In this document: positions 24,601 through 27,600 of the stretch, piece after piece
Numbering within the stretch: position 1 is the first letter of the stretch
Layout of the letters: each line of letters opens with the position of its first letter
NCBI RefSeq assembly: GCF_048403405.1
Contig: NZ_CP183129.1
Length of the DNA stretch: 64,000 bases
Strand: one strand, 5' to 3'
DNA from: Escherichia coli
GTDB lineage: Bacteria > Pseudomonadota > Gammaproteobacteria > Enterobacterales > Enterobacteriaceae
Program-made: the position numbers

Positions 24601-27600
24601 ACCAGTCGCTTGCGAAACATAATAATTTCTCAAAAGATATCGGTTTACCCGGCGTGGCTGATGCCCATATTGTTCTGACAAACCTGACCAGCCAAATTGG
24701 TCGCGAAGAGCCGAATAAGGTTACCCTAACCGGAGACGCCAATCTGGACATGAACTCCCTGTTCGGTAGCCAGAAAGCGACCATGAAACTGAAGCTGAAA
24801 GCGCTGCCCGTGTTTGATAAAGAAAAAGGCGCGATCTTCCTGAAAGAGATGGAAGTGGTCGATGCGACGGTACAACCGGAAAAAATGCAAACGGTGATGC
24901 AAACGTTGCTTCCCTATCTGAACCAGGCATTACGCAATTACTTTAACCAGCAACCTGCTTACGTCCTGCGCGAAGATGGCAGCCAGGGCGAAGCAATGGC
25001 GAAGAAACTGGCGAAAGGCATTGAAGTGAAGCCAGGCGAAATTGTCATTCCGTTTACTGATTAATCACGAGGGCGCATTCGCGCCCTTTATTTTTCGTGC
25101 AAAGGAAAACGTTTCCGCTTATCCTTTGTGTCCGGCAAAAACATCCCTTCAGCCGGAGCATAGAGATTAATGACTGCACCATCCCAGGTATTAAAGATCC
25201 GCCGCCCAGACGACTGGCACCTTCACCTCCGCGATGGCGACATGTTAAAAACTGTCGTGCCGTATACCAGCGAAATTTATGGACGGGCTATCGTAATGCC
25301 CAATCTGGCTCCGCCCGTGACCACCGTTGAGGCTGCCGTGGCGTATCGCCAGCGTATTCTTGACGCCGTACCTGCCGGGCACGATTTCACCCCGCTGATG
25401 ACCTGTTATTTGACAGATTCACTAGACCCTAATGAGCTTGAGCGTGGATTTAACGAAGGCGTGTTCACCGCTGCAAAACTTTACCCGGCAAACGCAACTA
25501 CTAACTCCAGTCACGGCGTGACGTCAGTTGACGCAATCATGCCGGTACTTGAGCGCATGGAAAAAATCGGTATGCCGTTACTGGTGCATGGTGAAGTGAC
25601 ACATGCAGATATCGACATTTTTGATCGTGAAGCGCGCTTTATTGAAAGCGTGATGGAACCGCTGCGCCAGCGCCTGACTGCGCTGAAAGTCGTTTTTGAG
25701 CACATCACCACCAAAGATGCTGCCGACTATGTCCGTAACGGAAATGAACGGCTGGCTGCCACCATCACTCCGCAGCATCTGATGTTTAACCGCAACCATA
25801 TGCTGGTTGGTGGCGTGCGTCCACATCTGTATTGTCTACCCATCCTCAAACGCAATATTCACCAACAGGCATTGCGTGAACTGGTCGCCAGCGGTTTTAA
25901 TCGCGTATTCCTCGGTACGGATTCTGCGCCGCATGCACGTCATCGCAAAGAGAGCAGCTGCGGCTGCGCGGGCTGCTTCAACGCCCCAACCGCGCTGGGC
26001 AGTTACGCTACCGTCTTTGAAGAGATGAATGCTCTGCAGCACTTTGAAGCATTCTGTTCTGTAAACGGTCCGCAGTTCTACGGGTTGCCGGTCAACGACA
26101 CATTCATCGAACTGGTACGAGAAGAGCAACAGGTTGCTGAAAGCATCGCACTGACTGATGACACCCTGGTGCCATTCCTCGCTGGGGAAACGGTACGCTG
26201 GTCCGTTAAACAATAAAAATCGTAGCTTCCTGTTGTCATTAGGTTATTTTACCTGTATAAATAACCAGTATATTCAACAGGGGGCTATTATGCGAATTGA
26301 AGTCACCATAGCGAAAACTTCTCCATTGCCAGCTGGGGCTATTGACGCCCTGGCTGGCGAACTTTCCCGCCGTATTCAGTATGCGTTTCCTGATAATGAA
26401 GGCCACGTATCGGTACGTTATGCCGCAGCGAATAATTTATCGGTTATTGGCGCGACAAAAGAAGATAAACAGCGCATTAGCGAAATTCTCCAGGAAACGT
26501 GGGAAAGCGCCGATGACTGGTTTGTCAGCGAATAATATGCAGTGATTTTTGTTTTTGCCGGGTCGCCCCGGCTTTTTTATTTTACTTACAAATTTCGAGT
26601 ACAAAATTTCTACACTTCCTCAAAATAATTGCACAATATGCTAAAAAAATATGAATGACATGCTGTTTTATTGTTCATATAAATCTTAAAAGCAAAAATT
26701 TATCTGTTCCCCCCTTTAAAAATTCGGTGAATACCCTTACTTATTGGTATACTGAAGTTGCTTCAGATAAAAACGCATTGAACCTCGAATAACGTTGTCT
26801 AGTAACACGAATTAGGGGGCCATGATGGAAAAAAATAATGAAGTCATTCAGACTCATCCGCTCGTAGGGTGGGACATCAGCACCGTTGATAGCTATGATG
26901 CGCTGATGTTGCGTTTGCACTACCAGACCCCAAATAAGTCCGAGCAGGAAGGGACTGAAGTTGGTCAGACGCTCTGGTTAACCACTGATGTTGCCAGACA
27001 ATTTATTTCGATATTAGAAGCAGGAATCGCCAAAATTGAATCCGGTGATTTCCCGGTAAACGAGTATCGGCGTCATTAACATGACATGACCATCCACCCA
27101 AAAGGCACCTCACCGGTGCCTTTACCATTTCTGGGTTGTATATCTGCATTCAGTTAATTACTCTGCTTAAACCATGAGAGCAGAGAGAAAAAAATGAAAT
27201 ACGATCTCATCATTATTGGCAGCGGTTCCGTAGGCGCTGCCGCCGGGTATTATGCAACCCGCGCCGGTTTAAACGTGCTTATGACCGACGCCCATATGCC
27301 ACCGCATCAACACGGCAGCCACCACGGCGATACGCGATTAATTCGCCATGCTTATGGTGAAGGCGAAAAGTATGTCCCACTGGTTCTCCGCGCGCAAACG
27401 CTGTGGGATGAACTCTCCCGCCACAACGAAGAAGATCCCATTTTTGTACGCTCTGGCGTCATTAACCTTGGCCCGGCTGATTCCACATTTCTCGCCAACG
27501 TCGCCCACAGCGCCAAACAATGGCAACTCAACGTTGAAAAGCTCGATGCGCAAGGGATTATGGCCCGCTGGCCAGAAATACGCGTCCCGGACAACTACAT

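What the first reader, a model, noticed from the sequence alone, without database searches (positions are those of the whole stretch)
26251..26270. LexA operator upstream of dinI
ACCTGTATAAATAACCAGTA fits the CTGT-N8-ACAG SOS box class and overlaps the probable promoter, 20 bp before the dinI start codon. Expected, but it confirms the gene call and start.
Basis: partly seen in the sequence, partly recalled or inferred. Interest (0 to 1): 0.15.

Follow-up and report, generated by a model that had tools for sequence, protein, structure and literature searches.

The report
LexA operator of E. coli dinI
This 20-bp sequence is the well-known LexA repressor binding site that keeps the E. coli DNA-damage gene dinI switched off until DNA is damaged; it is real, strongly conserved and entirely ordinary.

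Summary
In detail: ACCTGTATAAATAACCAGTA lies at window 26251-26270, 19 nt upstream of the ATG (26290) of an 81-aa ORF. That ORF is 100 % identical to E. coli DinI (PDB 1GHH), in the pyrC-dinI-bssS-solA locus.

The loose "CTGT-N8-ACAG" class is not informative by itself: 16 one-mismatch hits in the window against 18.5 expected. A leave-one-out LexA matrix is decisive. The site scores 21.0 bits, the next best 20-mer in 64 kb scores 9.2, about 0.0035 such sites are expected per window, and 0 of 200 simulated windows reach it. It ranks 7th among 18 published operators.

The identical string is printed as the dinI LexA motif in PMC3009722, and an EMSA on the dinI operator is shown in PMC5999292.

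All 80 syntenic orthologs from other Enterobacteriaceae keep the box. CTGTATA and CAG are invariant, while the adjacent spacer drifts to near-random.

The box overlaps a -10-like TATAAA paired with TTGTCA 17 nt upstream. In Klebsiella the orthologous box overlaps the mapped TSS and is LexA-occupied in ChIP.

Already known; low interest.

By-products: a C/A polymorphism at box position 2, an IS element splitting the box in one E. coli strain, and ERIC-like insertions in the 5' UTR of two genera.

The parts
26251..26270 (.). LexA operator (SOS box) of dinI, ACCTGTATAAATAACCAGTA. The quasi-palindromic core CTG-N10-CAG is at 26253-26268.
   Evidence: Sequence read. Leave-one-out matrix score 21.0 bits, the best in the window by 12 bits. 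Identical to the published dinI motif. Present in 80/80 orthologous loci, with CTGTATA and CAG invariant.
26233..26238 (+). -35-like hexamer TTGTCA of the dinI promoter (inferred).
   Evidence: It is the only hexamer pair with >=8/12 matches in 26201-26300: TTGTCA, 17-nt spacer, TATAAA, 10/12. TTG is conserved in 92-100 % of orthologs while the next 12 nt are near-random. No TSS was mapped here.
26256..26261 (+). -10-like hexamer TATAAA, lying inside the left half of the LexA box (inferred).
   Evidence: All six positions are 93-100 % conserved. In the K. pneumoniae ortholog the LexA box overlaps the mapped TSS (PMC10907235).
26279..26284 (+). Shine-Dalgarno sequence AGGGGG, 5 nt before the ATG.
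   Evidence: Read. Mean column entropy 0.08 bits across 76 distinct ortholog sequences.
26290..26535 (+). dinI coding sequence (81 aa plus stop), encoding a modulator of the RecA filament.
   Evidence: ORF. NCBIfam NF007893 at 178 bits, 1-81/81. 100 % identical to PDB 1GHH/7YWA. RefSeq annotation.
26557..26582 (+). Intrinsic terminator of dinI: GCCGGG-TCGC-CCCGGC followed by TTTTTTATTT.
   Evidence: Terminator scan. It is the first + strand terminator-like site after pyrC.

Best explanation
The 20-mer is the single LexA operator of the chromosomal dinI gene of Escherichia coli. A LexA dimer binds the two half-sites, CTGT at 26253-26256 and CCAG at 26265-26268. The site covers the -10 element (TATAAA, 26256-26261) and the start-site region of a sigma-70 promoter whose -35 is TTGTCA (26233-26238), so bound LexA excludes RNA polymerase and keeps dinI repressed. 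After DNA damage, RecA-ssDNA filaments trigger LexA self-cleavage, the operator empties and dinI is transcribed. The transcript has a leader of roughly 20-25 nt, is translated from the ATG at 26290 after an AGGGGG Shine-Dalgarno sequence, and ends at the hairpin at 26557-26572. DinI then modulates RecA filament stability.

Shown here: the sequence, its matrix score, its rarity, its conservation and spacing, and the gene's identity.
Taken from the literature: LexA binding (EMSA), damage induction, and TSS overlap plus ChIP in the Klebsiella ortholog.
Inferred: the exact -35/-10 assignment and steric occlusion in E. coli.
For: Sequence at the stated coordinates.

Matrix score: 21.0 bits with a leave-one-out matrix, 7th of 18 known operators, next best in the window 9.2, 0.0035 expected per window, 0/200 simulations. 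Heterology-type index of 3.70 on the 18-site table, 6th lowest.

Literature on E. coli: the identical string TTACCTGTATAAATAACCAGTATAT is listed as the dinI LexA motif among UV-induced genes (PMC3009722). dinI is listed among genes with a 'known SOS box' (PMC6590174). dinI mRNA rises after ciprofloxacin, log2 1.9 at 10 min and 3.7 at 75 min (PMC11002266). An EMSA of LexA on the dinI operator is shown in PMC5999292.

Literature on relatives: Salmonella dinI is induced 22.8-fold and has its box 19 bp from the ATG (PMC8072944). In K. pneumoniae the box overlaps the mapped TSS, and LexA ChIP occupancy falls on mitomycin C (PMC10907235).

Orthologs: all 80 loci from about 25 genera are pyrC-dinI syntenic. 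76 have a box of 19-30 bits at 18-21 nt from the ATG, 65 of them at exactly 19 nt. The other 4 keep the box and have insertions downstream of it.

Footprint: box columns average 0.27 bits of entropy against 1.53 bits for the adjacent 13-nt spacer. CAG (26266-26268), which lies downstream of the -10 where a promoter needs nothing specific, is invariant, while box positions 14-15 vary, as the LexA matrix tolerates.

Phages: 8 of 9 sampled dinI homologs (33-50 % identity) also have LexA boxes upstream, two at exactly 19 nt.

Within E. coli: the 64-nt promoter/operator/SD segment is 100 % identical in 4,597 of 5,401 genomes, including K-12 MG1655.
Against: No binding or expression experiment can be run here. 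The consensus promoter scan did not report a + strand promoter, because TATAAA lacks the final T that the tool requires, and a 10/12 hexamer pair is not rarer than chance in this window, so the promoter assignment is inferential. The E. coli TSS was not retrieved. The primary E. coli papers (Yasuda 1996, Fernandez de Henestrosa 2000, Courcelle 2001, Wade 2005) are not held in the library. The E. coli box is among the weakest of the orthologs (21.0 bits against a mean of 24.9), although still well inside the range of validated operators.
Confidence: 0.97

Rival explanations
1. The sequence is conserved only because it is the -10/start-site region of an A+T-rich sigma-70 promoter. Its resemblance to a LexA box is incidental and LexA does not regulate through it.
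For: TATAAA lies inside the box, and the -35-like TTG is conserved too. The loose CTGT-N8-ACAG class is chance-level in the window.
Against: The invariant columns are exactly the LexA half-sites CTGT and CAG at fixed 10-nt spacing. CAG lies downstream of the -10, where promoters impose no such constraint, and the variable positions (2, 14, 15) are those the LexA matrix tolerates. A score of 21 bits is expected 0.019 times per 64 kb even at 70 % A+T. Published EMSA, ChIP and damage induction also argue against it.
Confidence: 0.01
2. In addition to occluding the dinI promoter, bound LexA acts as a roadblock to transcripts reading through from pyrC, so the operator also insulates dinI from pyrimidine-regulated transcription.
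For: No intrinsic-terminator-like site exists on the + strand between the pyrC stop (26216) and the dinI terminator at 26557. The intergenic gap is only 73 nt and pyrC-dinI adjacency is universal in the 80 loci.
Against: No transcript data were examined. Rho-dependent termination or weak read-through would explain the same anatomy. The literature read here treats dinI as expressed from its own promoter; in Klebsiella about 50 bp upstream of the TSS suffices and is required.
Confidence: 0.08
3. Chance occurrence of a LexA-like palindrome with no function.
For: 16 one-mismatch matches to the loose pattern occur in the window by chance.
Against: 0.0035 expected per window at this matrix score and 0/200 simulations. 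The box is present in 80/80 orthologs at fixed spacing.
Confidence: 0.005

Closest known systems
The E. coli K-12 dinI SOS box (LexA operator), as listed in PMC3009722 Table 4. From my own knowledge it also appears in Fernandez de Henestrosa et al. 2000 and Courcelle et al. 2001, with a published heterology index of about 6.2; this was not verified here.
   Same: Identical 25-nt string, the same gene, the same pyrC-dinI-bssS context, and a 64-nt promoter segment 100 % identical to K-12 MG1655.
   Different: Nothing in the operator. Across 601 bp the window is 99.8 % identical to its best matches, so it comes from an ordinary E. coli strain.
dinI operators of other Enterobacteriaceae (Salmonella STM14_1331, Klebsiella pneumoniae dinI/DinR locus).
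   Same: The box is 19 nt from the ATG, overlaps the TSS, is occupied by LexA and is damage-inducible.
   Different: Most relatives have AACTGTATAAATA[AT]ACAGTA (25-30 bits). The E. coli allele has C at box positions 2 and 15 and scores 21 bits. The Klebsiella dinI mRNA carries a longer 3' UTR that yields the sRNA DinR, described as Klebsiella-specific. The E. coli 3' UTR is only about 45 nt.
LexA-controlled dinI/tum genes of temperate phages (Gifsy-1/2/3, lambdoid Stx phages, 186/P2-like tum).
   Same: A LexA box lies upstream of a DinI-family gene. Gifsy-2 and Klebsiella phage Kpn_R1 have it at exactly 19 nt (PMC8072944).
   Different: The proteins are 33-50 % identical and sit in prophage context. 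Some have two boxes (mEp460 at 13 and 41 nt) or a box ahead of a small upstream ORF 205-240 nt away.

Membership tests
Gammaproteobacterial LexA operator (SOS box, TACTG(TA)5CAGTA) | A 16-bp inverted repeat, CTG-N10-CAG, with an A+T-rich centre. | tested here: met
   CTGTATAAATAACCAG at 26253-26268. There is one mismatch to CTGT-N8-ACAG and 5 of 20 to the full consensus.
Gammaproteobacterial LexA operator (SOS box, TACTG(TA)5CAGTA) | A matrix or heterology score within the range of experimentally validated operators. | tested here: met
   21.0 bits leave-one-out, 7th of 18. Index 3.70 on the 18-site table; the listed sites range from 0.27 to 9.29. The HI < 15 criterion is quoted in PMC11002266.
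Gammaproteobacterial LexA operator (SOS box, TACTG(TA)5CAGTA) | A position overlapping or adjacent to the promoter of the regulated gene. | tested here: inconclusive
   The box overlaps TATAAA of a TTGTCA-17-TATAAA pair with a conserved TTG. However, the hexamer match is not beyond chance, the scanner missed it, and no E. coli TSS was retrieved. The orthologous Klebsiella box overlaps the mapped TSS.
Gammaproteobacterial LexA operator (SOS box, TACTG(TA)5CAGTA) | Physical binding by LexA. | not testable with these tools
   Literature only: an EMSA on the E. coli dinI operator (PMC5999292) and LexA ChIP at the K. pneumoniae dinI promoter (PMC10907235).
Gammaproteobacterial LexA operator (SOS box, TACTG(TA)5CAGTA) | Induction of the downstream gene by DNA damage. 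| not testable with these tools
   Literature only: UV (PMC3009722), ciprofloxacin (PMC11002266), and nalidixic acid in Salmonella at 22.8-fold (PMC8072944).
Gammaproteobacterial LexA operator (SOS box, TACTG(TA)5CAGTA) | Selective conservation of the half-sites across species. | tested here: met
   Present in 80/80 orthologous loci. CTGTATA and CAG are invariant in 76 distinct sequences, with entropy of 0.27 bits in the box against 1.53 bits in the neighbouring spacer.
DinI (DNA damage-inducible protein I; NCBIfam NF007893) | A full-length match above the curated cut-off of the equivalog model. | tested here: met
   178.2 bits against a cut-off of 111, covering 1-81 of 81.
DinI (DNA damage-inducible protein I; NCBIfam NF007893) | Identity to the structurally characterised E. 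coli protein. | tested here: met
   81/81 identical to PDB 1GHH and 7YWA.

The most novel reading that the evidence does not exclude
The common E. coli operator allele (C at box positions 2 and 15) is a derived, weaker version of the ancestral AACTG...ACAG box. It scores 21.0 bits against 25-30 bits in most genera and is in the bottom 7 of 80 orthologs. Position 2 is still polymorphic within E. coli: the 64-nt segment with C is exact in 4,597 genomes and with A in 208. The weakening could be adaptive tuning that gives E. coli a higher basal DinI level or earlier dinI induction than its relatives. A natural ISKox3 insertion that splits the box in strain MLI108K1 shows the locus tolerates loss of LexA control.
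Probability: 0.25. Interest if true: 0.2.

Novelty: already known. Interest (0 to 1): 0.05.

Why it matters
It matters little beyond annotation quality. The site is a textbook SOS operator, and confirming it fixes the dinI promoter and start codon in this window. It also identifies the window as ordinary E. coli chromosome (pyrC-dinI-bssS-solA). The minor by-products (allelic weakening of the box, an IS-split operator, ERIC insertions in the 5' UTR of other genera) could interest people who model SOS timing, but none of them challenges current understanding.

Tried and rejected
1. The loose pattern CTGT-N8-ACAG with <=1 mismatch is not enriched: 16 matches against 18.5 expected. I rejected it as evidence.
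2. In one search I mis-specified the pattern as 17 nt (CTGTAT-N8-CAG), so it could not hit the site. That result is irrelevant.
3. The built-in promoter scan found no + strand promoter at dinI, because it requires T at position 6 of the -10. My relaxed scan finds TTGTCA-17-TATAAA, but pairs that good are chance-level in frequency.
4. The two minus-strand promoter-like hits over the region are at chance frequency (3 found against 2.1 expected) and face no gene. I rejected them.
6. The first synteny test was too lax, returning True for every locus. I replaced it with tblastn of pyrC and bssS.
7. The four apparent 'box-less or displaced' orthologs turned out to keep the box, with insertions downstream of it.
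8. Attempts to read Wade 2005, Yasuda 1996 and Courcelle 2001 failed because they are not held. The supplement of PMC5999292 with Kd, half-life and operator positions is not held either.
9. The exact CTGT-N8-ACAG match at 55272-55287 scores only 8.1 bits and was not pursued as a LexA site.

Full report
OBSERVATION. The quoted 20-mer ACCTGTATAAATAACCAGTA is at window 26251-26270 on the + strand, as stated. Its core, CTGTATAAATAACCAG (26253-26268), is a CTG-N10-CAG inverted repeat. It departs from CTGT-N8-ACAG at one base (CCAG) and from the 20-bp consensus TACTG(TA)5CAGTA at 5 positions: 1, 2, 10, 14 and 15. The next ATG is at 26290, so 19 nt, not 20, separate the box from the start codon.

IS IT MORE THAN CHANCE? 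CTGT-N8-ACAG with up to one mismatch occurs 16 times in the window, against 18.5 +/- 4.5 in dinucleotide-preserving shuffles.

I therefore built a symmetrised log-odds matrix from 17 E. coli LexA boxes printed in Table 4 of PMC3009722, leaving out the dinI entry itself.
- The site scores 21.0 bits, and the next best 20-mer anywhere in the 64 kb scores 9.2 bits.
- The exact tail probability is 5.5e-8 per position. That gives 0.0035 expected per window and about 0.25 per 4.6-Mb genome; with a 70 % A+T background it is 0.019 per window.
- None of 200 first-order Markov simulations of the window reached 21 bits.
- Scoring each of the 18 published operators leave-one-out, dinI ranks 7th. A heterology-type index computed on the same 18 sites is 3.70, the 6th lowest.

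WHAT THE LOCUS IS. The window segment is ordinary E. coli chromosome. A 601-bp query matches 5,425 of 5,426 complete E. coli genomes, 99.8 % identical to the best ones, over features annotated pyrC and dinI. The neighbourhood is mdtH-grxB-yceB-pyrC-dinI-bssS-solA.

The 81-aa product of 26290-26532 matches the NCBIfam equivalog for DNA damage-inducible protein I end to end, at 178 bits against a cut-off of 111. It is 81/81 identical to the solved DinI structure, PDB 1GHH/7YWA. The flanking ORFs are dihydroorotase PyrC (25170-26216) and BssS (26822-27079).

ANATOMY. These features lie between the pyrC stop (26214-26216) and the dinI terminator:
- A -35-like TTGTCA at 26233-26238.
- A 17-nt spacer.
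- A -10-like TATAAA at 26256-26261, inside the left half of the box.
- The right half-site CCAG at 26265-26268.
- A Shine-Dalgarno sequence AGGGGG at 26279-26284.
- The ATG at 26290.
- Downstream of the stop codon (26533-26535), an intrinsic terminator: stem GCCGGG/CCCGGC at 26557-26572, then a T run.

The hexamer pair is the only one with at least 8/12 matches in 26201-26300. However, 10/12 pairs are as frequent as chance in the window (8 on the + strand against 7.9 in shuffles), and the stricter built-in scan did not report it. The promoter call is therefore inferential and leans on comparative and published evidence.

A 125-aa ORF (26158-26535) is in frame with dinI and runs through the pyrC stop and the promoter. 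Its only in-frame start candidates are ATG 26158, TTG 26233 (inside the -35) and ATG 26290. The operator/promoter position excludes the first two for the LexA-controlled transcript. The Shine-Dalgarno sequence, the family model and the solved structure fix 26290.

COMPARATIVE TEST. A scan of one genome per species returned 80 dinI loci from about 25 genera of Enterobacteriaceae. All 80 have pyrC immediately upstream. 78 have bssS downstream, and the other two are truncated contigs, so these are orthologous loci.

With the same leave-one-out matrix, 76 loci have their best upstream site (19.4-29.6 bits) ending 18-21 nt from the ATG, and 65 of them at exactly 19 nt. The four apparent exceptions keep both promoter and box. 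They have an insertion between the box and the Shine-Dalgarno sequence, of about 42 nt in two Trabulsiella species and 126 nt in Buttiauxella gaviniae and B. brennerae. This fits a transcription start at or near the box, with the insertions tolerated inside the 5' UTR.

In an alignment of 76 distinct sequences:
- Box columns average 0.27 bits of entropy, and C-T-G-T-A-T-A (26253-26259) and C-A-G (26266-26268) are invariant.
- The 13 nt just upstream (26238-26250) average 1.53 bits, and the 15 nt after the pyrC stop average 1.33 bits.
- The TTG of the -35 and the Shine-Dalgarno sequence are the other conserved islands.
- The invariant CAG lies downstream of the -10, where a promoter needs nothing specific.
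- The variable box positions (2, 14, 15) are the ones the LexA matrix tolerates.

This pattern argues that LexA recognition, and not promoter function alone, is what is being conserved.

Outside the orthologs, 8 of 9 sampled phage DinI-family genes (33-50 % identity) also have LexA boxes upstream:
- Gifsy-2 (25.0 bits) and Klebsiella phage Kpn_R1 (28.2 bits) have them at exactly 19 nt.
- mEp460 has two boxes, at 13 and 41 nt.
- P2/186-like tum genes have a box ahead of a small upstream ORF.

PUBLISHED EVIDENCE THAT COULD BE READ.
- PMC3009722 lists TTACCTGTATAAATAACCAGTATAT as the dinI instance of the LexA motif and names dinI among the most prominent UV-induced genes.
- PMC6590174 lists dinI among E. 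coli genes with a known SOS box.
- PMC11002266 reports dinI mRNA at log2 +1.9 ten minutes after ciprofloxacin and up to +3.7 later, and quotes HI < 15 as the usual criterion.
- PMC5999292 shows an EMSA gel of LexA on the dinI operator. Its tables of Kd, half-life and operator position are not held.
- PMC8072944 gives Salmonella dinI as 22.8-fold induced, with a box 19 bp from the ATG at HI 4.0. The Gifsy dinI homologues also have their boxes at 19 bp.
- PMC10907235 maps the K. pneumoniae dinI TSS by dRNA-seq and primer extension, states that the LexA box overlaps it, and shows by ChIP that LexA occupancy of the promoter falls on mitomycin C. It also shows that about 50 bp upstream of the TSS is required for expression.

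The primary E. coli papers were not available. What I recall from them, such as a published HI of about 6.2, is memory and not a result.

MECHANISM. Most likely (confidence about 0.97), a LexA dimer on 26251-26270 covers the -10 and start-site region and excludes RNA polymerase. RecA*-stimulated LexA autocleavage after DNA damage frees the promoter. DinI is then made and modulates RecA filaments.
- Shown here: the sequence, score, rarity, spacing, conservation and gene identity.
- From the literature: binding and induction.
- Inferred: the precise hexamers and occlusion in E. coli.

Rivals:
- A promoter-only explanation is contradicted by the half-site conservation pattern and by published binding.
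- Pure chance is excluded statistically.
- A supplementary roadblock role against pyrC read-through is possible but untested. No terminator is seen between pyrC and dinI.

VARIATION.
- The 64-nt promoter/operator/SD segment is identical in 4,597 of 5,401 E. coli genomes, including K-12 MG1655 and O157:H7.
- An allele with A instead of C at 26252 (AACTG..., 25.3 bits) is exact in 208 genomes.
- The common E. coli box is among the weakest of the 80 orthologs, at 21.0 bits against a mean of 24.9.
- In strain MLI108K1 an ISL3-family ISKox3 element sits in the exact centre of the box with an 8-bp ATAAATAA duplication. This separates the half-sites and moves the promoter 1.3 kb away from dinI.

VERDICT. 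The feature is already known and the interest is low.

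Noticed in passing
L091 (E. coli MLI108K1, NZ_CP116994.1) 1137-2536; equivalent to window 26257-26264: An ISL3-like ISKox3 element is inserted in the exact centre of the dinI LexA box, with an 8-bp target duplication ATAAATAA. 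It splits the CTGT and CCAG half-sites and separates the -35/-10 from dinI. This is a natural operator knock-out.
   Followed up: partly
window 26252 (box position 2); L092 (E. coli ZYB62): There is a C/A polymorphism within E. coli. The 64-nt segment with C is exact in 4,597 genomes and with A in 208. The A allele (AACTG...) is the form most other genera carry and scores 25.3 bits against 21.0 bits.
   Followed up: partly
L062 1362-1487 and L080 (Buttiauxella gaviniae, B. brennerae); L033, L034 (Trabulsiella): A 126-nt insertion lies between the LexA box and the Shine-Dalgarno sequence of dinI in Buttiauxella. The insert is a dispersed intergenic repeat, with a median of 7 places per E. coli genome at 80-85 % identity, and resembles ERIC/IRU (the name is from memory). 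Trabulsiella has an insertion of about 42 nt at the same place.
   Followed up: partly
window 26217-26556: No intrinsic-terminator-like site lies on the + strand between the pyrC stop and the dinI terminator. pyrC transcripts may therefore read into the dinI promoter/operator unless they are stopped by Rho or by bound LexA.
   Followed up: no
window 26158-26535: A 125-aa ORF in frame with dinI starts at ATG 26158 inside pyrC and runs through the pyrC stop and the dinI promoter. A naive longest-ORF gene call would mis-start dinI here.
   Followed up: yes
window 55272-55287: This is the only exact CTGT-N8-ACAG in the window (CTGTAATTAGATACAG), and it scores just 8.1 bits on the LexA matrix. It is an example of the loose pattern misleading.
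   Followed up: partly
window 25120-25169 (+): Rfam PyrC leader (RF02372, 68.7 bits) lies immediately upstream of the pyrC ATG.
   Followed up: no
window 1059-1227 (-), 3088-3424 (+), 34300-34342 (+), 47480-47571 (+), 53172-53259 (+), 61560-61753 (+): Other Rfam or ARAGORN hits, in coordinate order: SraB sRNA, the rne 5' UTR element, ES036/CssrF, ES056, tRNA-Ser(GGA), and Ysr251 antisense RNA.
   Followed up: no
window 26536-26582: The E. coli dinI 3' UTR is only about 45 nt up to the terminator. In K. pneumoniae a longer dinI 3' end is processed into the Hfq-dependent sRNA DinR, which represses ftsZ and is described as Klebsiella-specific (PMC10907235). Whether the E. coli 3' fragment has any sRNA role was not examined.
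   Followed up: no
(E. coli genomes): Five matches to the dinI promoter segment lie on records labelled as plasmids rather than chromosomes. They were not inspected.
   Followed up: no
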